The notes under the pieces: model-generated
Seen by the model: only the letters and a program-made list of their open reading frames with translations
Databases searched by the model: none
What the model was told of the DNA's origin: nothing
Shown here: positions 7,001 through 56,412 of the stretch, one piece after another
Layout: each line of letters starts with the position of its first letter
Numbering within the stretch: the stretch's first letter is position 1
Position numbers and translations under genes: made by a program
DNA from: a virus
Lineage: Duplodnaviria; Heunggongvirae; Uroviricota; Caudoviricetes
IMG/VR virus record: IMGVR_UViG_2718218136_000001
Strand: one strand, 5' to 3'
Length of the DNA: 64,000 nucleotides

Positions 7001-10000
7001 CACCGCATCGGCGTACTCCGGCAGGAAACGATAGGTGATCCGGCGATAGTACAGGTCCATGTCAGTACATACGCGGTCCATATCCCTGATTATTGAGAAG
7101 ATCGGACGGGCTTTCTCGTGCTCAATCACGCCGTCTTCATTGACCGAGGTCGTTACGCCATTGTTGGCTTTGGCCGCCGCTTCCGCCTGCTGACGCAATT
7201 CTTCATACGCCGCCAGTTGTTCTTCAGTAAGTGGTGCATCCTGCTGGTGTTCGTCCAGCTCCGGGATCTCCACGGTATCCTTAACGTCTTCCGCCGTTTT
7301 AAGCGTTACCCAGCGATGGAATATACCGCGCAGCGCATCAAGGTTTTCAAAGCCCACCAGCGCCATTTTCTTCAACTTCACCGCTAATTTTCTGTACCGT
7401 TTCCAGCCTGGTCTTGCCGAAGAATTTAACGAAGTCATCAGGACCGTAGATCCCCATGTTCTGCAGTATTCCTTCGGCAAACATGAGAAAGCATGTTGTA
7501 TGCATCGATCGGGGTGTTAACGACTGGCGTTGCAGTCAGGAGAACCGGCCCGCGCCCGCCATTCTTTTTCATCAGGTACGCGTTTTTAATTGCCATATCT
7601 CGCGCCGATTGCGCCACCGCGCTGGTGGGCAGATAGGCCAGTTGTGACGCTTCGCGACCATTTTTATAGCTATTGCGGTAGTTGTGACCTTCGTCAGCGA
7701 TCACACTATCGAAGCCCATATCCTCAAAGTACGGATACTTCTCTGCTTTTTCGGTGCCGGTATCTGAATACTCCGACAATACCCGGCGACGCGCGGCCTC
7801 TTTGCGGTGGGAGTCGGAGTCCATTGCGCTGGCTACGCGTCCGGCGGCAACGAAGTCATAAAGCATATCCTGTGCATGCTCATCTACGGTGTCATCACGT
7901 AGCGGAATGCGGGCGTATTGTTTTTGGTAAACACGACTGCACGGTAATTTGAGTGCGGATCGCGTTCATCCGCGCCGTGATAGTGGCTTCATCTGCCAGC
8001 TTAAGAGCATCGCGCATAACTGGAGTGCCATCAGTACCAAGAACAGGTTTACCGTTCTCATCGAGCACCGGCACCTGGCGAATCTGATCACCATCCATCA
8101 GCACATCAAGACCGACGAACAGGTAGTTACTGAATGCCTCTTCACTCAGGAATTCTTTTGCTTCGTAATACCAGTTTTCCAGCACTGATTTAGGCACTAC
8201 ATACGCAGTACGGGTGGAGCGACCGTTCTCATAGTTGAACGCCTCAAGCGCCAGCGCGGTCGTGGTTTTACCCAGCCCGGTGCCGAAGCCCAGGATCCGC
8301 GCCCATCTTCGGACAGTCGGCGCACCTCGCTATTCTGGTAATCAAATGGCTGGCGCTTACCGCTTAATCCCTTCAACCCAAGCGGATCGCCAGAGTGTTC
8401 ATACGGGATATTGCTATTGAACACATCGTTGTATTTGGCAACCAGCTCATCGTAGCGATCGTGCGTCTTGATCCACTTATTGAACTGGTCCTCAAGCAGT
8501 GCCATCTGCTCGCGGTAGCCGTTCGCCGTCGCGCTATCTTTGCCACCGATACGCGCACCATTGAGATACTTTTCCAGCTGTGCCGGGAACCCGGTCGCGT
8601 TTTCACCTGATTTACGGTCCCACTGTAGCGGATTCTCGCCTGTTTCTTTATCCTTGCGCTGGACGACACCGTATCGGTGCCCGACGAACAGACCATCACC
8701 ACCGTGATAGGTGTCAGAAACCATTTCGTCGCCTTCCAGCTGCACTGACTGCACATAGCGCAGATCCGGATAGCCGTTTTCCTGCAAAAACTCCAGAATG
8801 ACGGAACGGTCGAACCAACGGCTATTGAGCTTAAACCGGATATTCTCTGCTGGCGTCTTGATGCGCTTCTCTTCGATCGCTGCCAGCTGATTAAGGACGT
8901 TGTTCTTTACTGGACCGTCGGGGAGCGTGGCGAGGAATTCCTGTTTTGGAGCCACTATCTCGTTAATGTCGCCGCTGGTGGCGCGGGCGAACGGAACAAT
9001 CCCGCCATACGGTGAAACCGCAATACCAGGAGTGCTGGCCAATAAATTAAGCAACTCTTCATCACTGGCTGGCAATTCGCCGGTAAACGCAAGGCGGAAA
9101 TCATCGAGCTGGATTGGATCGCGGGTAAGATCGCTATAGAGATAACGCAGGGTGTCCTGATAGCTGGTGGAGTCATAACTGGCGCTGGAATCATGCGTAA
9201 CCAGCTTTCCTGTCAGCTCGTCAGAAATAGTGCCATCCAGCTTAATTGCACCACGGAAAGCAACCAGGCGCGCGCACCGCTTCCCGATAATTAGCTATCG
9301 GACCGCGACCAGGGTTACCAAAACGGTCAATCTCTGCCTGCAAACGGGATACCAGAGAAAGGCGCTGCTGTTCGATTTGTTCAGCACTATGCCCGGCGGC
9401 CTTCATATCCTGATATTCAATTAACATCCGGCCAATCATCGCCCCACGATACAAGCGTTCACGGTATTTTTCAGGCTGGCTGTTAATCCAGTCCACCAGC
9501 GGCACCATATCGTCGCTGATTGATGTGGTGTACTTATCGCGGACATTTGCCATCTGGGTAAATGTCATACCGAGACGGCCTTCTGTTGTAGTCAGGTTAC
9601 GCTGAAGAGCCTCCCAGCTATCCGCGCCATAACTGGCAGCATCAATTTTAAGTTCCTTCCCGGCATCAGCTTCAATCCAGCGACCACCAGCATATTTTGC
9701 CATACGCCATTAATCAGGCGCATTTCCCCTTCACCAACAACGTCTGCGGTCAGTGACGGTTCAGCCATATCGAGCAAAGACCAGTCGATACGGCTTTCGA
9801 AACGATGAATCAGCTTCGCTTTAAGAGCCTGGTTATCAATCTGACCGTCGGCACGAACCTCAATACGCCCCTGGAAGCCCTTTTCCTGGGTGCCATGAAC
9901 AAACCGGCGGCCATCCTTTTCAAACCACTTGCCAGAAATAAACGTTGGCCAAAGCACATTTGCTGATTCAAGAGTGCTTTCATCCACCAGGGAGATTTTC

Positions 10001-50238: not shown

Positions 50239-51136
50239 GCACTGGAAAAATATTACTATTTATAAACTTTCTCGTGAGGCGGATCTGACCGACTTAGAAG
50301 ATAAAAAGAAAATGATCCTTTTCACGCCATGCGGTAGTCAGGATATGGCCAAGTTCGGTTTTGTATCGCCATTTGGTGATAATTCCGAAGTTATCGCTAT
50401 GCATGGAAATGGTTTTATCCTTGTTGAAGCAAAGCGCGAAACAAAAATTCTTCCCCCGCCGGTTATCCAGCGAGCTATTCAAGAAAAAATTGAAAAACTT
50501 GAGCAAGAACAAGCGCGTAAACTGAAGAAAACAGAGAAGGACTCCCTGAAAGACGAAGTTCTGCATTCTCTTCTGCCACGGGCTTTTTCAAAGTTTTCTG
50601 TTATCCAGGCGATCTACGACGGTTCAACTAAACGTATCTATATCAATGCCAGCGCGCGGCAGGCAGAGGATATGCTCGCGCTTATGCGTAAGTCTCTGGG
50701 TTCTCTTCCTGTTGTGCCACTAAGTGTTGAAAATCCCATTGAGTTAACGCTGACCGACTGGGTACGTGATGCTAGTGCTCCACAGGGATTTCAAATGGGG
50801 GATGCGGCAGAACTTAAGGCAGTGCTTGAGGATGGCGGTATCGCCCGAGTGAAAAAGCAGGATTTGGGAAGCGATGAAATTTCCACACACCTGGAAGCTG
50901 GCAAGCTCGTCACTAAGTTGGCACTCGACTGGCAGAACCGCATTAAATTTACACTGGACCATAACTTCAGCATTACCAGCGTCAATTTTGCGGATGAATT
51001 GCTTGAGCAGAACTCTGATATTGATAGTGAAGATGTTGCGCAGCGACTGGACGCAGATTTCTTCCTATTGACCAGTGAAATTTCGTGCCTGGTTGATGCT
51101 CTGGTAAATGCCCTTGGTGGAGAGGCTAAGCAGTGA
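50231..51136 (+). CDS. hrdC: RdgC-family recombination-associated protein (HrdC-like)
   Basis: Close resemblance to RdgC throughout ([44 protein letters not shown]). Confidence 0.8.
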
Positions 51137-54100
51137 AAGAGCTGTGCTATGGATCTGTTTGCAGTGGAATTGAAGCCGCGAGTATTGCCTGGGAACCGTT
51201 GGGTATGCGTCCGGTTTGGTTTGCTGAAATCGAGCCTTTTCCATCGGCCGTTCTTGCGCTCCGCTGGCCCCATGTCGCCAACCTTGGCGACATGACAAAA
51301 CTTGCCAAAAAAGTCTTGGCTGGGGAAATCGAATCCCCTGACGTGCTCGTCGGGGGAACACCATGTTTTACCGCGGGGCATATGGTTCTTTGTAAAAATG
51401 GTTATAAACCAATAGAAGATGTTTGCCCTGGCGATTACGTAGTCAGTCATCTCGGGCGGTTACAACAAGTAAAAAGAGTTGGTTCAAAAATAGCTAATAC
51501 GGGGTTACTTAATGCCGTTGGGCAGCCTTTAGGTATAAGAACAACCAATGACCATCCCTTCCTGGCTGTTCGGTGGAAAGCCCAAAACACCCGGAAAAAT
51601 GGCACATATTTTAAGAGAGAGTTGTTGTCTGAACCGGAATGGCGAGCAGCATGTGATATGCCGGGATATCAATGGTGCGCTCTAACTAATTTCAATATTG
51701 CATCTCCAGATATTTGTTCTCGGTTCTTGTCTGAAGAACAGGCTATGTATCTTGCGGGCGCTTATGTTGGCGATGGATATATTAGGAGATGGAGAGGTAA
51801 ATCTAAGAAGGCGGTTGTTTTTGGCATAAATTGCCAGAAATTGAGAAAGTTTCATTGCCGCATACCAGAAAACATATTTTCCGTGGCAAGCGAAATCCGA
51901 GGGAGCATCAAAGTAACCTTGAATGATACGTGTTATGCCAATTGGCTTAATGAACATTTTGGCGAGTTAAGCCATGCTAAGCGTATCCCTGCATGGGTGA
52001 TGTCGCATCCATTGCGTCATGTGTTTTTACAAGGCTATCTTGATACTGATGGGACACCAAGTGGTAAAGCGGGATTTAGAATTAATAGTGTTAGTCCTGC
52101 GCTTGCTTGGGGCGTTGCGGGGTTGTCACAGACTTGTGGTTATGTTTCTTCGGTCAGCTTTATTGAAGTTGAGCCCAAAAAAGTGATCGAGGATCGCGTG
52201 GTAAATCAACGGAATTATTATCAGGTAACAATCTGCCCGCAGAAATTGTCACGTAAATCAAGATTGGCTCATGGAATGCTTTTACGAACAGTCAAAGAGT
52301 TTAAATCGGTAGGCCTAGATACTGTATACAACATAGAAGTCGAAGGTGATCATTCCTATATCCTCAATGGTGCGGTGGTCCATAACTGTCAGGCATTCAG
52401 TATCGCGGGCTTACGTGGTGGGCTTGATGATGAACGCGGCGCGCTAACTTTGAAGTATGTGGAGCTTGCAAATGCAATTGACGACAAACGGTCTGAGTCC
52501 TTCCTCAAACCGACAGTTATCGTCTGGGAAAATGTCCCAGGAGTCCTGTCATCGGCAGATAACGCCTTCGGATGTTTCCTTGCCGGATTGGCTGGAGAAG
52601 ATGCGCCATTTGAACCAGGTGATCGACCTGAATCAGGAAAAAGTAACGCGTTCTGGCGGTGGGATGGCAAAACCGGTTGCCATGCTCCAAAGTGGCCGCA
52701 GTGTGGTTGTATTTATGGACCGCAGCGAAAGGTGGCCTGGAGAATCCTTGATGCCCAATACTTCGGAGTGGCACAACGACGCCGACGCGTGTTTGTTGTC
52801 GCAAGTGCTCGAACAGACCTCGATCCCGCAACGGTACTTTTTGAGTTCGAAGGCGTGCGTCGGAATATTGCGCCGAGCCGAAAAAAGAAGGAAATCGCTT
52901 CCGCCATTATTGCAAATGGCGCTGCAATCAGTGGCGAAAGCCTAAATCCATGCCTACACGCTGACATGCCACCCGGTATGAAATCGACGAAAGCCGTAAA
53001 CGCTTTCAGGATGGCAGCATTTGGGGAATATATTGACGATGAAACCGCATCGACAGTAAAGGCAAGAGATTTTAAAGATGCCACTGACCTTGCCGTTTTT
53101 AGCAGCACAGGAGCAGGTTTTTGGTCAGAAGGGCATGGTACATTGCGGGCACGTGAGCAAGAAAGCCATGAGCATCTTGTTACATTGGTTTTTCCTGAGC
53201 GTATGAGCGGTACACAACATGCTGAAACTAAGAATACTTCACCATCTCTAATGGCTAAAAATCCAACAGCTGTTTGCTATGAAGTAAGAAACGCAGAAGT
53301 AGCTGTCCGCCGTCTTACCCCTGTCGAATGTGAAAGGCTGCAAGGTTTTCCTGATGGGCATACGTTGATCCCGACGGAAAAGCGTAAAAAAGTTAATTCA
53401 GATGAACTGGCATATCTTCGCAATCACTATCCAGATTTAAGCGAAGAAGAGGCCGCGATGCTTGCAGCTGACGGACCGCGTTACAAAGCGATCGGCAATA
53501 GTATGGCAATACCAGTAATGCGCTGGATTGGCGATCGGATTACTAAGGCCGTATGTCGGCAGAAAGAAGGAAGTGAAACAAAAGAGCGAAAAGTTAAACC
53601 AGCGGCAGAATTCGAACGGTCCATATTCAAATGGGCTGGTGGAAAATTTGGTGTTCTGGAACAAATCTTTCGCTATTTGCCAGAAGGGAAGCGCCTGATC
53701 GAACCTTTTGTCGGTGGCGGAGCTGTCTTCACGAATGCCGGATACCAGGAAAATCTGCTAAATGATGTGAATGCTGACCTGATTAACTTTTACAAGACTC
53801 TGCAACGCGAGGCGCATTCACTTATCACACTGGCGCATCGTTTCTTCCAGGACTACAACACACAGGAAGGATACCTGGCAGTACGGAATGCGTTTAACAA
53901 ACAAGTCTATGATGATTTACATCGCGCAGCGGCGTTTTTGTTCCTGAACCGACATTGTTTTAACGGATTGACGCGTTACAACCAGGCCGGTGAGTTCAAT
54001 GTCGGTTATGGGAAGTATAAAACTCCGTATTTCCCATTACAGGAGATGGAAGCCTTCCTCGGTGCGGAAGGGCGGTCTGAGTTTGTATGCGGTGATTTTG

Positions 54101-54420
54101 CAGCGGTGATTGAAGCTGCCGGAGAAGGAGATGTCATCTTTTGCGATCCGCCGTATGAACCGCTTCCAAATACAGAGGGATTCACGAACTATTCCGGTCA
54201 TGACTTTAAGTTTGAAGAGCAAAAACGCCTGGTGTCTCTGTTGACGGATGCTCATCGCCGAGGTGCAAAGGTTCTCATTACTAACAGTGGCGCGCCAAAC
54301 ATCAGAGAGCTTTATCATGACAATGGCTTCAGAGTGGAACCTCTTTTTGCCAGACGTTCTGTGTCTTGTAAGGGGGACACTCGAGGTGTTGCTCATGACG
54401 CCTTAGGTATATTGCTCTAA
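51133..54420 (+). CDS. dmt: bifunctional DNA methyltransferase Dmt (N-terminal C5-cytosine MTase + C-terminal Dam-like N6-adenine MTase), intein-containing precursor (1095 aa)
   Basis: C5 motifs I (SVCSGIEAA), IV split GGTP|C..intein..|[10 protein letters not shown] (VWENVPG), VIII (QRRRRVFVV), IX-X ([26 protein letters not shown]); Dam motifs [21 protein letters not shown]; GTG start overlaps hrdC stop. Confidence 0.85.
51364..52386 (+). mobile_element. intein (341 aa) with LAGLIDADG homing-endonuclease domain inserted at catalytic Cys of C5-MTase motif IV
   Basis: Begins CFTAGHMVL, block [18 protein letters not shown] motifs [11 protein letters not shown] and [11 protein letters not shown], ends ...GAVVHN followed by +1 Cys; in frame, exteins rejoin to GGTPCQAFS. 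Confidence 0.8.
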
Positions 54421-54428
54421 TAAATTTA
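54412..54428. promoter_or_regulatory. C1 operator (ATTGCTCTAATAAATTT, 17/17 consensus) overlapping dmt stop
   Basis: Read directly. Confidence 0.6.
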
Positions 54429-54601
54429 TTAGTGTAATATCGTCTCAATGAATCGTGATTTATAGAGCGATTTAGCTGTTAGCCGCGACAGGCGCGGCGG
54501 TAAGCATGGCTGGGCCTAGTCCTCCCAGACAAACCACCGAGTTGCCAGGTTGACCATGCGCCTAAGTGGCAACGCCGAAGTGCGTTACGAGCTTCCAGTT
54601 T

Positions 54602-54627
54602 GCCCATCTTCGGGTGGGCGTTTTTTT
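54602..54627 (+). terminator. rho-independent terminator gcccatc-ttcg-ggtgggc followed by gTTTTTTT
   Basis: Hairpin plus U-tract. Confidence 0.6.
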
Positions 54628-55092
54628 CAGGGTTTTCGTCATGGTTAGCGACTTTGCGGCGGTTTAGAAACTGACCATTAAAGTAAATGCAAACGATGAT
54701 CTGATGATGGTAGCGGCCTAAGAAGCCAGACGCCACGGGGTATGAGTCGTCCCCCGTCAAAAAATCGACCGCAGAGTGTCCCCGTCTGTGTATTAGGGAA
54801 CGGGGAGGCACAACAGGTAAGGGCGCTGGTGTGATTAACCAGATGAACGAGAAGGGGCCATCTGTTGGTCAGCGTCCTTTCCTGTTGCGTCTTCTTTTCA
54901 GCGTAACAGCGGTGCTTAACAGCACTGTGGGTACAGTTCCACGAATTTACGGGTATATCCCGTCATGCTGAAAGCGCTAATCACGCTGGAAGCCAGGGTT
55001 ATGCATCCCCTGTTACCGAATTGCAGCCAGGGCGCGGTGCGCCGAAAAGCATACGGAGGTGGAAGCCCTCGCCGGAGACGTACCCGGCAAGT

Positions 55093-55168
55093 GATGGTGT
55101 AGCTCAGCGGTTAGAGCGGTTGACTGTTAATCAACGGGTCGATGGTTCAAATCCATCCACCATCGCCA
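55093..55168 (+). tRNA. tRNA-Asn (anticodon GUU), CCA encoded
   Basis: Cloverleaf folded by hand: 7-bp acceptor stem, anticodon loop CUGUUAA, T-loop GGTTCAAATCC. Confidence 0.85.
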
Positions 55169-55170
55169 AT

Positions 55171-55246
55171 GCTGGTTTAGCTCAGTTGGTAGAGCGCCTG
55201 CCTTGTAAGCAGGATGTCAGCGGTTCGAGTCCGTTAACCGGCACCA
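55171..55246 (+). tRNA. tRNA-Thr (anticodon UGU), CCA encoded
   Basis: Cloverleaf by hand: anticodon loop CUUGUAA, T-loop GGTTCGAGTCC. Confidence 0.85.
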
Positions 55247-55977
55247 GCACAACAGGTAAGGGTATTTTGCGACGTCGGAGATCGCCGAGCTTGGCAGAGG
55301 GTTCGAATCCCTACGAAGTGCCCTTACCGTTGTGATGAAGTGCAGCTCTTTGAAGCAACCAGAAGATAAGCATCTGGCTTCACAACATAAACCGCAGGAA
55401 CGACCAATAAACGGTAGTCCGTATGGAGAACACCCCGTTGAGGAAGAGGCCTGGCCGGAACCGTAACCGGCACTACAACGTTGAGAACACTGGCGTAACG
55501 GGGTCATATCCCAATCTACGAATAAATGTTGCGTTGCAGCGTGACAACCAGTGTTCTCAACATTGTGGTGAATGCACAGGCTGATGTGCCGCAACTACAG
55601 TAGTGCGCGCTTTGCGGGGCTTGCTATAACCCTGTGTCGGAGTTCAGCACCGATCATCACAGTTTGATTCTCTGGCATGAGCATAACGCTGAAATAAGTC
55701 CAGTCTGGTGCGGCCCGATCACCCGCCGTTAGCTCCACGAAACGGAGCACGTAACAGGTAAGAGCATTCTCCTGTAACGGGTTCATATCCCAATCTACAG
55801 GTCCACCAGGAATGCTCTTTCCGTTGCGGTGAATGCGGCTAAGCGCACGCGGAACAGTTAAAACAATCCTCCTTAATGGTTAAACATTCCGGCGTTAATT
55901 GTTAACTGGTTAACGTCACCGGGAGGCACTCGGCACCGCAATCTAATAAATATGTCACTTTTATTGAGGGATAACCA

Positions 55978-56412
55978 ATGTTCGGTAAATTGTTCGGCAA
56001 GAAAGTCGCTTCTGCAAAAGTAGAGCTGAAAAAAGTTGAGAATCGAGATCTGATGGAGGCCATCATCGGTGGCTGTTTGTTGGTATCTGCCGCTGATGGT
56101 GAAATCGAAAAAGAAGAAACAGCGAAACTTGATCAGCTTGTCCGCTCTAATCCGCGTCTTAGTCATTTTGGTAACGAAATTACTGCAACAATTACCCGCT
56201 TTACCGAGCAACTGGAAGCTGGCTTCCGTGTTGGTCGCATGAATATCCTTCGCGAAATTGAAGATATCAAAAACGATCCAAAAGAAGCGGAAGAAGTATT
56301 CGTTAACATGCTGACAATTGCAGAAGCGGACGGTGAAATCGAGCCAGCAGAACACAAAGTACTGGAAGAAGTAGGCCGTCGTTTAGGTCTTCGTGTGGAA
56401 GATTATCTGTAA
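55978..56412 (+). CDS. TerB-like tellurite-resistance-family protein (144 aa)
   Basis: Duplicated SAADGEIEKEE / AEADGEIEPAEH motifs typical of TerB fold. Confidence 0.6.
   Translation: MFGKLFGKKVASAKVELKKVENRDLMEAIIGGCLLVSAADGEIEKEETAKLDQLVRSNPRLSHFGNEITATITRFTEQLEAGFRVGRMNILREIEDIKNDPKEAEEVFVNMLTIAEADGEIEPAEHKVLEEVGRRLGLRVEDYL

What the first reader, a model, noticed from the sequence alone, without database searches (positions are those of the whole stretch)
54800..55900. Repeated motifs and long hairpins flanking the tRNA-Asn/tRNA-Thr pair
A motif acaacaggtaag(g/a)g recurs at about 54822, 55250 and 55755, and (t/g)tcatatcccaatctac...ggtgaatgc recurs at about 55505 and 55785. There is a ~19-bp near-perfect inverted repeat (acaacgttgagaacactgg at 55474-55492 and its complement near 55538-55560). 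The segment after tRNA-Thr (55247-55335) has a T-arm-like GGTTCGAATCC inside a 15-bp stem but does not fold as a canonical tRNA. These could be tRNA-derived pseudo-elements, processing signals or structured small RNAs.
Basis: seen in the sequence. Interest (0 to 1): 0.5.

Follow-up and report, generated by a model that had tools for sequence, protein, structure and literature searches.

The report
Modular structured-RNA island in phage P1
The repeats are the conserved arms of a family of long RNA hairpins, one of which holds a tRNA look-alike with no anticodon arm; together with tRNAs, an sRNA-like module and a previously unreported tmRNA-like tag template, they form an unannotated island of small structured RNAs at the head of phage P1's ban operon and in many other temperate enterobacterial phages.

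Summary
The window is a phage P1-type plasmid, and 54800-55900 lies in the non-coding leader of the C1-repressed ban operon. The repeated words are the arms of four paralogous long hairpins with a common scaffold: CACAAC-(bulged A)-GGUAAGRGCAUU ... RUGCYCUUWCC-GUUGUG. The arms covary strongly, the fold is specific to the + strand, and unrelated interiors are swapped between phages. The element at 55248-55334 carries a tRNA-derived mini-cloverleaf (D-like arm, stub, canonical T-arm) but has no anticodon arm and no CCA. GGUGAAUGC marks the start of STnc100/PasD-type modules. The P1-annotated minus-strand genes plp and upl look spurious. Directly upstream (54628-54807) lies an unannotated tmRNA-like module: a resume context, a 10-codon tag frame (ANDDLMMVAA*), the stop codon in a hairpin loop, and two covarying pseudoknots, but no recognisable alanine-accepting tRNA-like domain. 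The same modules recur, shuffled, in ~110-kb phage-plasmids and in late-operon leaders of lambdoid phages. Function is untested. My best guess is RNA punctuation and processing stems (RNase III, RNase P) that release the embedded RNAs. Rival readings are decoys, or parts of a dismembered tmRNA system.

The parts
54409..54440 (+). Pban promoters and the C1 operator Op72 (an inverted repeat). This is the start of the transcript that covers everything below.
   Evidence: P1 annotation mapped from NC_005856; inverted repeat I2; coordinates. No other sigma-70-like promoter lies on the + strand before ban.
54601..54627 (+). Terminator-like hairpin plus U-run at the end of the P1-annotated 'dicF-like region' (~54535-54636).
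   Evidence: P1 annotation. Rfam gives no DicF match at E<=10.
54628..54688 (+). Pre-tag segment of the tmRNA-like module. It holds the conserved words GUUUUCGUC (54632-40) and GCGACUUUGCGG (54648-59), and the resume context AAAGUAAAU (54680-88).
   Evidence: Conserved in 46 distinct variants. The resume context is the same as in bona fide viral two-piece tmRNAs. The Rfam tmRNA_permuted model aligns here.
54689..54721 (+). tmRNA-like tag reading frame: GCA AAC GAT GAT CTG ATG ATG GTA GCG GCC TAA = ANDDLMMVAA*.
   Evidence: There are 16 distinct tag variants. Frame 0 is open in 16/16, while frames 1 and 2 contain stops in 15/16 and 9/16.
54708..54735 (+). Helix-5-like hairpin that holds the stop codon in its loop.
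   Evidence: Read from alignment A1 and from the sequence; not formally counted.
54735..54769 (+). Pseudoknot a. S1 is ACGGGG 54735-40 with CCCCGU 54752-57; S2 is GUCG 54746-49 with CGAC 54766-69.
   Evidence: Compensatory variants occur in both stems across 46 variants. The best-pseudoknot score is 9.9, against 3.7+-4.1 in shuffles.
54770..54807 (+). Pseudoknot b. S1 is CGCAGA 54770-75 with UCUGUG 54785-90; S2 is UCCCCG 54779-84 with CGGGGA 54801-06.
   Evidence: Compensatory variants, for example CGCAC/GUGUG and CGCAG/CUGUG.
54809..54889 (+). Scaffold hairpin 1, with a P1-specific interior.
   Evidence: (z -5.8).
55093..55168 (+). tRNA-Asn(GUU).
   Evidence: ARAGORN; Rfam 74.5 bits.
55171..55246 (+). 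tRNA-Thr(UGU).
   Evidence: ARAGORN; Rfam 71.8 bits.
55248..55334 (+). Scaffold hairpin 2, the tRNA-like hairpin. It has a ~21-bp stem, a D-like arm (55270-86), a mini-arm (55285-94) and a canonical T-arm AGGGUUCGAAUCCCU (55298-55312). It has no anticodon arm and no CCA.
   Evidence: 13 of 21 stem pairs change on both sides, and 0 of 500 shuffles reach the observed score. Present in 468 of 5,426 complete E. coli genomes and unannotated there.
55329..55386 (+). Module C, closed by GUUGUGA (55329-35) pairing with UCACAAC (55380-86). It is conserved in the ~110-kb phage-plasmids.
55471..55570 (+). Scaffold hairpin 4 (GUUGAG-type arms). Its interior has the GUAACGGGGUCAUAUCCCAAUCUAC motif (55495-55519) and a second small hairpin.
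   Evidence: (z -5.6).
55563..55661 (+). Module B1. It starts with GGUGAAUGC and is closed by UGUGGUGA pairing with UCAUCACA. It has the same architecture as the STnc100-like module below.
   Evidence: Fold and coordinates. The resemblance is by inspection only; there is no Rfam hit.
55751..55828 (+). Scaffold hairpin 3, whose interior holds the second copy of the GUAACGGGUUCAUAUCCCAAUCUAC motif (55774-98).
   Evidence: (z -4.3).
55825..55940 (+). Module B2, an STnc100/PasD-type sRNA-like module in the 5' leader of tciA.
   Evidence: Rfam RF02076: 43.0 bits against a gathering score of 47, E 1.6e-7. Homologous stretches occur in lambdoid phages.

Best explanation
WHAT IT IS (shown). The segment is non-coding RNA read on the + strand as part of the long C1-controlled ban-operon leader of a P1-type phage-plasmid. 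The repeated words are the two arms of a paralogous family of long hairpins: CACAAC, a bulged A, GG, a U.U or U-A position, then AAGRGCAUU, pairing with RUGCYCUUWCC-GUUGUG. These arms enclose interchangeable interiors. One interior (55248-55334) is a tRNA-derived mini-cloverleaf without an anticodon arm. The GGUGAAUGC 'tail' is the first strand of the next module, an STnc100/PasD-type sRNA-like fold. The hairpins alternate with tRNA genes, with these sRNA-like modules and with a tmRNA-like tag module, so the whole leader is a mosaic of structured RNA cassettes. The conserved arms also act as recombination joints, which is how interiors get swapped, duplicated or deleted between phages. HOW IT WORKS (inferred, not shown). 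The stems of 20 bp or more, with a conserved bulge and mismatch, serve as punctuation in the polycistronic transcript. They are double-stranded RNA substrates for host RNase III, and the tRNA-like one is probably also a substrate for RNase P. Cleavage would separate the flanking tRNAs, sRNA-like modules and tag module, define their ends, and release the hairpin tops as small stable RNAs. I put the identity part at about 0.85 and the processing mechanism at about 0.4; the confidence field below is for the mechanism.
For: Identity and context: 99% identical to P1 68659-70107, with the Pban/Op72, trnA, trnT, tciA, trnI, ban layout; no internal promoter and only one terminator-like site. RNA-level structure: folds with z -4.3 to -5.8. 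The + strand is more stable than the - strand in 70 of 75 distinct hairpins, by a mean of -7 kcal/mol (p=1.5e-12), with 281 G.U pairs against 172. Arm covariation across interior classes: 10 of 19 pairs change on both sides, 0 of 500 shuffles reach any of the five measures, and slid controls give 37-56% paired against 90.5%. The same holds for the tRNA-like hairpin, with 13 of 21 pairs. Modularity: P7 and Ro157 carry a different interior between the same arms, one P1 isolate carries both in tandem, and SJ46 has a clean deletion between the two TCATATCCCAATCTAC copies. More than 20 interior classes share the scaffold. Position: hairpins start 0-2 nt after tRNA CCA ends and directly precede GGUGAAU modules. 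In lambdoid contigs the tRNA-like hairpin sits between a tR'-like terminator and an STnc100-type module, in the Q-to-lysis leader. Not coding: plp and upl are not conserved and have no Pfam match. From established knowledge: RNase III needs about two helical turns of dsRNA and processes T7 early RNAs, rRNA precursors and dicF; RNase P matures the P1/P7 C4 RNA.
Against: There are no transcript-end, RNase-dependence or abundance data for this region, so cleavage is pure inference. If the stems were only generic dsRNA, the strong sequence conservation of the interiors would not be needed. The tRNA-like core is near-invariant across P1-type, lambdoid and other phages, although my search pattern enforced part of that invariance. 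That conservation points to a function of the interiors themselves. A fully base-paired leader and trailer is a poor RNase P substrate. Arm similarity within one genome could partly reflect recent duplication or gene conversion rather than selection.
Confidence: 0.42

Rival explanations
1. The interiors are the active parts, and the hairpins are stable small RNAs that act as decoys or regulators. [quoted passage not shown] Other interiors would be other decoys or antisense loops. The long stem would simply provide stability.
For: The tRNA-like interior is nearly invariant while its stem drifts with compensation. It keeps a perfect T-loop and a GG-containing D-like loop. It travels with tRNA arrays and a tmRNA-like module, all of which are translation-related RNAs. 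A TLD-only tmRNA form exists in mycobacteriophage DS6A, and a similar molecule inhibits tmRNA, perhaps by titrating SmpB (PMC4131195; PMC11915505).
Against: Most other interiors have no recognisable mimicry and are poorly conserved, with many singleton classes. No binding partner is identified, and no protein gene is shared between the phage families that carry the hairpins. Part of the core's invariance was imposed by the search pattern.
Confidence: 0.25
2. The tRNA-like hairpin and the upstream tag module are the two halves of a dismembered (split) tmRNA system that still works in, or interferes with, trans-translation. The other scaffold hairpins would stand in for the pseudoknot ring.
For: The tag module has a tmRNA resume context, a 10-codon frame ending in small hydrophobic residues, the stop codon in a hairpin loop and two covarying pseudoknots. 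The tRNA-like hairpin and the tag co-occur on the same strand in 93 of 118 loci, and many of the rest are cut by a contig end. In some phages the hairpin lies directly upstream of the tag, which is the gene order of permuted tmRNAs.
Against: The acceptor-like stem is closed and has no 3' end or CCA. Position 3:70 is U.G or C-G, not the G3.U70 that AlaRS needs. No pairing or covariation links the hairpin to the tag module (inspection and 67 data). The modules occur separately: tag without hairpin in E. coli ~110-kb plasmids and in L065, and hairpin without tag in L200 and L204. Rfam tmRNA models score 14-24 bits here, against 135-173 bits for true viral two-piece tmRNAs. The synonymous fraction in the tag is low, 0.27 against 0.69.
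Confidence: 0.15
3. These are neutral debris: decaying tRNA genes and recombination scars in a hypervariable tRNA hotspot, with hairpins arising from inverted duplications and carrying no function.
For: The region is highly mosaic, and only 422 of 1,027 matching plasmid records carry most of this arrangement. The tRNA complements vary: Asn-Thr, Asn-Tyr-Thr-Ser, Arg-Tyr-Thr-Ser and others. The tRNA-like interior looks like a truncated tRNA.
Against: Compensatory substitutions maintain pairing across distant phage families. There is a strong strand bias with G.U pairs. The elements persist in P1-type, ~110-kb and lambdoid phages that share little else. A perfect T-loop is kept in 40 or more variants.
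Confidence: 0.08
4. These are DNA-level elements: recombination or cassette-exchange sites (integron attC-like or MITE-like) or single-stranded-DNA hairpins used in replication, rather than RNA.
For: Conserved inverted ends (CACAAC...GTTGTG) flank variable centres and include a bulged base, which is superficially like attC sites. Cassette-like swaps and a repeat-mediated deletion are seen. The element lies in the operon of the Ban helicase.
Against: The hairpins always lie in the same orientation as the co-transcribed tRNAs and tag, and the G.U-rich pairing works on that strand only. The ends do not fit the attC core sites RYYYAAC/GTTRRRY. No integron integrase or shared recombinase is found across the host phages. 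Swaps are explained by ordinary homologous recombination at the arms. No target-site duplications were noticed.
Confidence: 0.06
5. The region encodes the P1-annotated proteins Plp and Upl on the minus strand, and the repeats are incidental.
For: P1 reference annotation. ORFs of 125 and 63 aa exist in the window.
Against: There are no Pfam matches. upl is absent or replaced in P7, D6 and SJ46, and loses its start in Ro157. plp is broken by stops or frameshifts in Ro157 and SJ46, and its C-terminus is swapped in P7. plp overlaps tRNA-Thr in antisense. PGAP does not call either gene in RefSeq plasmids.
Confidence: 0.02

Closest known systems
tRNA (Rfam RF00005) and tRNA-like structures used as processing signals (MALAT1 mascRNA; the P1/P7 C4 RNA precursor cut by RNase P)
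   Same: 55248-55334 has a canonical T-arm (GGGUUCGAAUCCC), a D-like arm whose loop contains GG, and a 7-bp acceptor-like helix stacked next to the T-arm. Its core motif is otherwise found in genuine tRNAs.
   Different: It has no anticodon arm, only a 3-bp mini-hairpin. The acceptor-like helix continues into a closed ~21-bp stem, with no free 3' end and no CCA. Neither ARAGORN nor the Rfam tRNA model calls it. Its use as a processing signal is inferred only.
Two-piece (permuted) tmRNA, Rfam RF04321/RF01850, including copies on viral contigs
   Same: The module at 54628-54807 shares several features with it: the resume context (UAAAU|GCA AAC GA.), a 10-codon tag ending in A/V-A-A or A-V-A, the stop codon in a hairpin loop, and downstream H-type pseudoknots. 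In some phages a T-arm-bearing element lies just upstream, as in permuted genes.
   Different: There is no acceptor piece with G3.U70 and CCA. It scores 14-24 bits, against a gathering score of 47-84 and 135-173 bits for true cases. Peptide-level constraint is weaker. ARAGORN calls it only at a relaxed threshold, with inconsistent tRNA-like domains.
TLD-only 'tmRNA' of mycobacteriophage DS6A and ~65-bp CDS-less plastid forms (PMC4131195, PMC11915505)
   Same: Both are phage-borne, stand-alone tRNA-like domains without a tag reading frame. The reported effect of such a molecule is inhibition of host tmRNA.
   Different: The DS6A form is recognised as a tmRNA TLD by the tmRNA database authors. 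The P1 hairpin lacks the alanine identity pair and a 3' end, so homology to a TLD is not established.
STnc100 / PasD prophage sRNAs (Rfam RF02076; bioRxiv 10.64898/2026.05.13.724894)
   Same: 55825-55940 aligns to model positions 31-147, including the closing helix and the CCGGGAGGCACYCGG hairpin. The GGUGAAU start is shared with module B1. Canonical STnc100-type modules follow the tRNA-like hairpin in lambdoid contigs.
   Different: It scores 43 bits, just under the gathering score of 47. The 5' 30 and 3' 60 model positions, including the terminator part, are missing. Here it is a 5' leader of tciA rather than a free-standing gene.
RNase III processing stems in polycistronic transcripts (T7 early RNAs, rRNA operon stems, dicF of the dicB operon, the metY-nusA-infB leader); from my own knowledge
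   Same: Both are paralogous stems of 20 bp or more, with internal bulges or mismatches, placed between functional RNAs in one long transcript. Some stems enclose the RNA to be released.
   Different: Cleavage has not been demonstrated here. The interiors are far more elaborate and more conserved than a simple processing site needs.
Bacterial Y RNA YrlA (Rfam RF02553) and the T4 tRNA-cluster stable RNAs (species 1/2); from my own knowledge
   Same: YrlA is a long terminal stem carrying a tRNA-like module with T- and D-arms. The T4 RNAs are small stable RNAs of unknown function embedded in a phage tRNA cluster.
   Different: In YrlA the terminal stem replaces the anticodon stem and binds Rsr; here it extends the acceptor side. 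There is no RF02553 hit on the hairpin; the only weak hit spans the two real tRNAs. I did not test for sequence relation to the T4 RNAs.

Membership tests
tRNA | Called by a tRNA covariance model or ARAGORN | tested here: not met
   No call at 55247-55335 by ARAGORN, and none by Rfam even at E<=10.
tRNA | T-arm with a canonical T-loop | tested here: met
   AGGG-UUCGAAU-CCCU at 55298-55312, invariant in 20 aligned variants.
tRNA | Anticodon arm with a 7-nt loop | tested here: not met
   Only 12-14 nt lie between the D-like arm and the T-arm, forming at most a 3-bp mini-hairpin.
tRNA | 7-bp acceptor stem with a free or processable 3' end (discriminator plus CCA) | tested here: not met
   The helix continues for ~21 bp, and the bases after position 72 are CCCU or CUCU rather than NCCA. 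Whether it is processed cannot be tested here.
tmRNA (standard or two-piece) | Resume codon context and a short tag reading frame ending in hydrophobic residues, with the stop codon in the helix-5 loop | tested here: met
   AAAGUAAAU|GCA...GCC UAA at 54680-54721. There are 16 variants, all open in frame 0. Caveat: the search pattern fixed the tag length and the terminal GCC-TAA.
tmRNA (standard or two-piece) | Pseudoknots flanking the tag | tested here: met
   Two downstream H-type pseudoknots have compensatory changes in all four stems. An upstream PK1 equivalent was not resolved.
tmRNA (standard or two-piece) | tRNA-like domain with G3.U70, a T-arm and 3'-CCA, linked to the tag by helix 2 | tested here: not met
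   ARAGORN finds none at default stringency, and its relaxed calls are inconsistent. The only T-arm element has U.G or C-G at 3:70 and no 3' end. No linking helix was found.
tmRNA (standard or two-piece) | Reaches the Rfam gathering score | tested here: not met
   RF04321 gives 24.1 bits (gathering score 47) and RF01850 gives 14.1 bits (gathering score 84). True viral two-piece tmRNAs give 135-173 bits.
STnc100 (RF02076) | Reaches the Rfam gathering score over the model | tested here: not met
   55825-55940 scores 43.0 bits against a gathering score of 47, covering model positions 31-147 of 206. The D6 homologue scores 39.6 bits. It is a near miss and is best called STnc100-like.
RNase III processing site | About two helical turns (>=20 bp) of mostly Watson-Crick dsRNA, often with an internal loop or bulge | tested here: met
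   The stems are 19-23 bp or longer, with a conserved bulged A and a U.U/U-A position.
RNase III processing site | Staggered cleavage in vivo or in vitro that depends on rnc | not testable with these tools
   No transcript-end data were found.
Y RNA (YrlA, RF02553) | Covariance-model match | tested here: not met
   There is no RF02553 hit on the hairpin. The only weak hit (21 bits, gathering score 69) spans tRNA-Asn and tRNA-Thr. I did not test for a neighbouring rsr (Ro) gene.
DicF (the P1 'dicF-like region') | Match to the Rfam DicF model | tested here: not met
   No DicF hit at E<=10 in 54420-55100. The label comes from the P1 record.
Integron attC site / MITE | Core sites RYYYAAC...GTTRRRY with an integron integrase, or terminal inverted repeats with target-site duplication | tested here: not met
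   The ends read (G)CACAAC...GTTGTG(A), which violates both consensus words. The orientation is always that of the transcript, and the pairing is strand-specific. No integrase is shared by the host phages.

The most novel reading that the evidence does not exclude
P1-type, ~110-kb and lambdoid temperate phages of enterobacteria carry a dismembered tmRNA system that database searches have missed. It consists of an acceptor-less tag-template RNA (resume codon, 10-codon degron-like frame, two pseudoknots) and a separate anticodon-less tRNA-like hairpin. Together, or each alone, these would reprogram or block host trans-translation during lytic growth, for example by titrating SmpB or by offering an alternative tag template. 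The scaffold hairpins would be the standard packaging for such translation-targeting RNAs.
Probability: 0.18. Interest if true: 0.85.

Novelty: new variant of a known kind. Interest (0 to 1): 0.62.

Why it matters
P1 is one of the best-studied phages, yet about 1.5 kb at the head of its ban operon is annotated only as two tRNAs plus two dubious ORFs. This analysis shows it is a mosaic of conserved structured RNAs that also occurs in unrelated phage-plasmids and in the late-gene leaders of lambdoid (including Stx-type) phages, and on P1-type plasmids in about 9% of complete E. coli genomes. If the hairpins are processing punctuation, they explain how tRNAs and Hfq-type sRNAs (STnc100/PasD) are released from long phage transcripts, and how such cargo is shuffled between phages. 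If the tRNA-like hairpin and the tag module act on trans-translation, that would be a new way for phages to manipulate ribosome rescue. It would also extend the tmRNA family to acceptor-less forms, which an expert ssrA survey of RefSeq viruses and plasmids did not list for P1 (PMC4131195).

Tried and rejected
1. The ARAGORN 'tRNA-Thr(ggt)' at 7892-7984 as a possible missing acceptor piece. It has no T-loop and no Rfam hit, so it is a false positive.
2. ARAGORN at a relaxed threshold to find a tRNA-like domain for the tag. The proposed domains differ from locus to locus and lack a T-loop and CCA, so I rejected them.
3. Trans-pairing between the hairpin's variable linker and the pre-tag segment. 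One 7-nt match in L037 is not repeated in other loci, which share the same pre-tag but have different linkers. I treated it as chance (inspection).
4. The pre-tag motif as a sigma-70 promoter. The hexamers and spacing are poor, and the scan makes no call.
5. The TCATATCCC motif as a diverged T-arm. It is only 11/13 identical, 11-17 of 500 shuffles score as well, and the loop is non-canonical. I kept it as 'suggestive' only.
6. The MAFFT alignment of tag modules (A1) for formal pair counting. The ~110-kb-plasmid rows were out of structural register, so I used an explicit per-sequence pseudoknot search instead.
7. The genome-contig scan with the tRNA-like core. It mostly hit real tRNAs in unrelated taxa, so it was uninformative about range but informative about origin.
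8. Literature searches for the P1 ban leader, the tag peptides, phage tmRNA-like genes and P1 transcript maps. They gave nothing specific. The P1 genome paper is not in the held library.
9. A resemblance of GUAACAGGUAAG to the 16S rRNA 3' region, and of the arms to a 5' splice site. I noticed both from memory, judged them coincidental, and did not pursue them.
Full report
**Where the finding lies.** The window is a phage P1-type plasmid. It carries the C4 and sok RNAs, and 54400-56000 is 99% identical to P1 NC_005856 68659-70107. In the P1 record this stretch is the head of the ban operon. The order is: the end of dmt; promoters P1ban/P2ban with the C1 operator Op72 (window 54409-54440); a 'dicF-like region'; trnA (Asn); trnT (Thr); two minus-strand ORFs, plp and upl; tciABC; trnI; ban. 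A simple scan finds no other sigma-70-like promoter on the + strand before ban and only one terminator-like hairpin, at 54601-54627. The whole region is therefore most simply read as one long, C1-repressed transcript. That reading is an inference from the annotation, not something shown here.

**Checking the observation.**
- AACAGGTAAGRG is at 54812, 55251 and 55753. The 16-mer at 54808 and 55247 is identical.
- The 25-mer GTAACGGG(G/T)TCATATCCCAATCTAC is at 55495 and 55774.
- GGTGAATGC is at 55567 and 55828.
- A 23-nt inverted repeat pairs 55471-55493 with 55548-55570.
- GGTTCGAATCC is at 55300.

The arm motif occurs three times in this leader and nowhere else in the 64 kb, with about zero expected by chance. 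Each motif copy is the 5' arm of a long hairpin: 54809-54889, 55248-55334 and 55751-55828, plus a fourth with related arms at 55471-55570. All four fold far better than shuffled sequence, with z from -4.3 to -5.8. ARAGORN and Rfam find only the two real tRNAs.

**It is RNA, and it is a family.** I catalogued hairpins with such arms in the window, in ten annotated relatives and in 74 viral contigs. This gave 133 instances and 75 distinct sequences, all sharing one scaffold: CACAAC, a bulged A, GG, a U.U or U-A position, then AAGRGCAUU, pairing with RUGCYCUUWCC-GUUGUG.

The + strand fold is more stable than the - strand fold in 70 of 75 cases, by a mean of -7 kcal/mol (p=1.5e-12). There are 281 G.U pairs on the + strand against 172 on the other. 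The structure therefore belongs to the strand that is transcribed together with the tRNAs.

On an arms-only alignment of 31 distinct hairpins with different interiors, 90.5% of cells pair and 10 of 19 pairs change on both sides. None of 500 shuffles reaches any of the five measures, and sliding the partner by 1-3 columns drops pairing to 37-56%.

The P1-annotated ORFs plp and upl overlap these hairpins on the opposite strand. They have no Pfam match and are not conserved: they are absent, frameshifted or interrupted in P7, D6, SJ46 and Ro157. PGAP does not call them in RefSeq plasmids. I regard them as spurious.

**Interiors are swappable cassettes.**
- In P7 and Ro157 the arms of hairpin 2 enclose a short unrelated interior.
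- One P1 isolate has both versions in tandem.
- P7 and D6 have a tRNA-Ser-like gene and a different hairpin where the window has 55590-55750.
- SJ46 has lost exactly the DNA between the two TCATATCCCAATCTAC copies.
- Ro157 has an extra tRNA-Tyr and a 160-nt insertion.

More than 20 interior classes share the scaffold. Pieces of the island are 85-94% identical in ~110-kb phage-plasmids of E. coli and Klebsiella (the CMS-2020a/Cyrano type, which I recall as SSU5-like). These otherwise differ from P1, and there the same hairpins sit among Asn/Tyr/Thr/Ser tRNA genes, often starting 0-2 nt after a CCA end. The conserved arms thus also behave as recombination joints.

**The element at 55248-55334 is tRNA-derived.** Its interior consists of:
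- a 7-bp helix next to the T-arm;
- a 3-bp arm with a 9-nt loop that contains GG;
- a 3-bp mini-hairpin;
- a perfect T-arm.

A scan for its core found 118 viral loci and 44 distinct versions. Some have entirely different arms that still pair. On 20 diverse versions, 13 of 21 stem pairs change on both sides, with 0 of 500 shuffles reaching the observed score. The core itself was partly fixed by my search pattern, so its invariance is not independent evidence.

In species-representative genomes the same core pattern hits ordinary tRNAs. This supports descent from a real tRNA that lost its anticodon arm. The element has no CCA, its acceptor-like helix is closed, and position 3:70 is U.G or C-G. 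It occurs in 468 of 5,426 complete E. coli genomes, almost always on plasmids, and is unannotated there. The TCATATCCC motif of hairpins 3 and 4 resembles a T-arm only marginally.

**GGUGAAUGC starts the next module.** 55825-55940 aligns to the prophage sRNA family STnc100 at 43 bits, against a gathering score of 47. 55563-55661 has the same architecture. STnc100 and its relative PasD are described as prophage sRNAs (bioRxiv 10.64898/2026.05.13.724894). In lambdoid-type contigs the tRNA-like hairpin lies directly after a tR'-like terminator and directly before a canonical STnc100-type module. That unit sits between a Q-like antiterminator gene and the holin-lysozyme-Rz cassette.

**An unannotated tmRNA-like module just upstream.** While reading homologues I saw that 54689-54721 reads GCA AAC GAT GAT CTG ATG ATG GTA GCG GCC TAA (ANDDLMMVAA*). 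It is preceded by AAAGUAAAU, the same resume context as in two-piece tmRNAs, and the Rfam permuted-tmRNA model aligns this stretch at 24 bits.

A pattern scan of viral contigs returned two kinds of hit:
- Bona fide two-piece tmRNAs, which ARAGORN calls at default stringency and which score 135-173 bits in Rfam.
- 56 P1-type modules that are never called. They have 16 distinct tags, including ANEEVYLAVA, ANDEQFLAVA, ANDNQYLAVA and ANDDLMLAAA.

The P1-type modules have the stop codon in a hairpin loop and two downstream H-type pseudoknots. All four pseudoknot stems show compensatory variants. Frame 0 is open in 16 of 16 tags, while frames 1 and 2 mostly contain stops. However, only 27% of single-nucleotide codon differences are synonymous, against 69% in the true tmRNAs, and my pattern fixed the tag length and its end. 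Peptide-level selection is therefore suggestive, not proven.

No alanine-type tRNA-like domain is found. The tag module and the tRNA-like hairpin usually co-occur on one strand (93 of 118 loci). In some phages the hairpin directly abuts the pre-tag segment, which is the order seen in permuted tmRNA genes. Even so, each also occurs without the other. An exhaustive expert search of RefSeq viruses and plasmids reported ssrA only in mycobacteriophages and Bacillus phage G, plus a TLD-only form in DS6A that resembles a molecule inhibiting tmRNA (PMC4131195; PMC11915505). P1 is not mentioned, and the tag peptides appear in no held paper.

**How it most likely works.**
- *Shown:* these are conserved, strand-specific, covarying RNA structures. 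They are arranged as modules between tRNAs, sRNA-like folds and a tmRNA-like module, and they are exchanged between phages at their arms.
- *Inferred:* the stems of 20 bp or more, with a conserved bulge and mismatch, are what host RNase III cuts in T7 early RNA, in rRNA precursors and in dicF (established knowledge). RNase P is known to mature the P1 C4 RNA. I therefore favour a punctuation and processing role that frees the neighbouring RNAs and the hairpin tops (confidence about 0.4).

The near-invariant tRNA-like interior argues that at least this hairpin also has a function of its own. It could be a decoy for a tRNA- or tmRNA-binding factor (0.25), or half of a dismembered tmRNA system (0.15). 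Neutral debris, DNA-level elements and protein coding are disfavoured by the covariation, the strand bias and the ORF decay.

**Limits.**
- There are no expression or cleavage data.
- The P1 genome paper could not be read.
- Several alignments were seeded by exact patterns, which inflates apparent core conservation.
- The module B1 assignment and the helix-5-like hairpin rest on inspection only.
- The taxonomic range beyond enterobacterial phages is not established.

Noticed in passing
window 54628-54807: An unannotated tmRNA-like module: the resume context AAAGUAAAU, the tag frame ANDDLMMVAA* (54689-54721), the stop codon in a hairpin loop, and two covarying pseudoknots. No recognisable tRNA-like domain goes with it. 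Sixteen tag variants occur across P1-type, ~110-kb and lambdoid phage contigs.
   Followed up: yes
window 51133-54420 (+): The dmt ORF is 1,095 aa, against 754 aa in reference P1. It carries an intein-like insertion (Pfam Hint_2 at aa 77-126 and LAGLIDADG_3 at aa 298-361) that splits the C5-cytosine methylase motif GTPC...QAFS.
   Followed up: partly
window 55216-55786 (-): The P1-annotated genes plp and upl are not conserved as ORFs in P7, D6, SJ46 or Ro157 and have no Pfam match. They are probably annotation artefacts lying antisense to structured RNAs and to tRNA-Thr.
   Followed up: yes
window 55825-55940; L005 2803-2923: An STnc100/PasD-like module forms the 5' leader of tciA. It scores 43 and 39.6 bits, just below the Rfam gathering score of 47. 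In reference P1 the central part of this module is replaced by different sequence.
   Followed up: partly
L003 2288-2374, L005 2607-2693, L007 2926-3012, L008 2576-2662: An 87-nt 'tRNA-Ser(UGA)' in P7, D6 and the ~110-kb plasmids scores best against the Rfam tRNA-Sec model, at 41-44 bits against a gathering score of 47. The D6 annotators flagged it as odd. It is absent from the window.
   Followed up: no
L014, L023, L047 and ~43 other viral loci (L011-L130): Many IMG/VR contigs, including some of 170-350 kb with tRNA arrays, carry bona fide betaproteobacterial-type two-piece tmRNA genes (135-173 bits). I did not determine whether these are phage-encoded or host flanks.
   Followed up: partly
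L065 (oriented copy; tag at about 3220 in the locus): This is a minimal ~175-nt tag module (pre-tag, tag, two pseudoknots) with no scaffold hairpin, tRNA or T-arm element. It sits in the 5' UTR of an ORF, between two copies of a ~50-nt hairpin-containing repeat ending in TATGGTATGTTTA, and looks like an insertion.
   Followed up: no
window 55329-55386, 55563-55661, 55825-55940 and all module borders: The words CACAAC and GUUGUG recur at every module junction. Each GUUGUG can therefore pair either backwards, closing the hairpin, or forwards, closing the next module. This could be an alternative-structure switch or just a recombination joint.
   Followed up: no
window 54535-54636: The P1-annotated 'dicF-like region' gets no Rfam DicF hit at E<=10. 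It ends in the only terminator-like hairpin of the leader, so ban expression needs read-through there. D6 has different sequence upstream of the same hairpin.
   Followed up: partly
window 7892-7984: ARAGORN calls a 93-nt tRNA-Thr(ggt) here. It has no T-loop and no Rfam support, so it is almost certainly a false positive in coding DNA.
   Followed up: partly
L006 (SJ46) versus window 55513-55792: SJ46 has a clean deletion between the two copies of the TCATATCCCAATCTAC repeat. This shows that the direct repeats in this island are active recombination substrates.
   Followed up: yes
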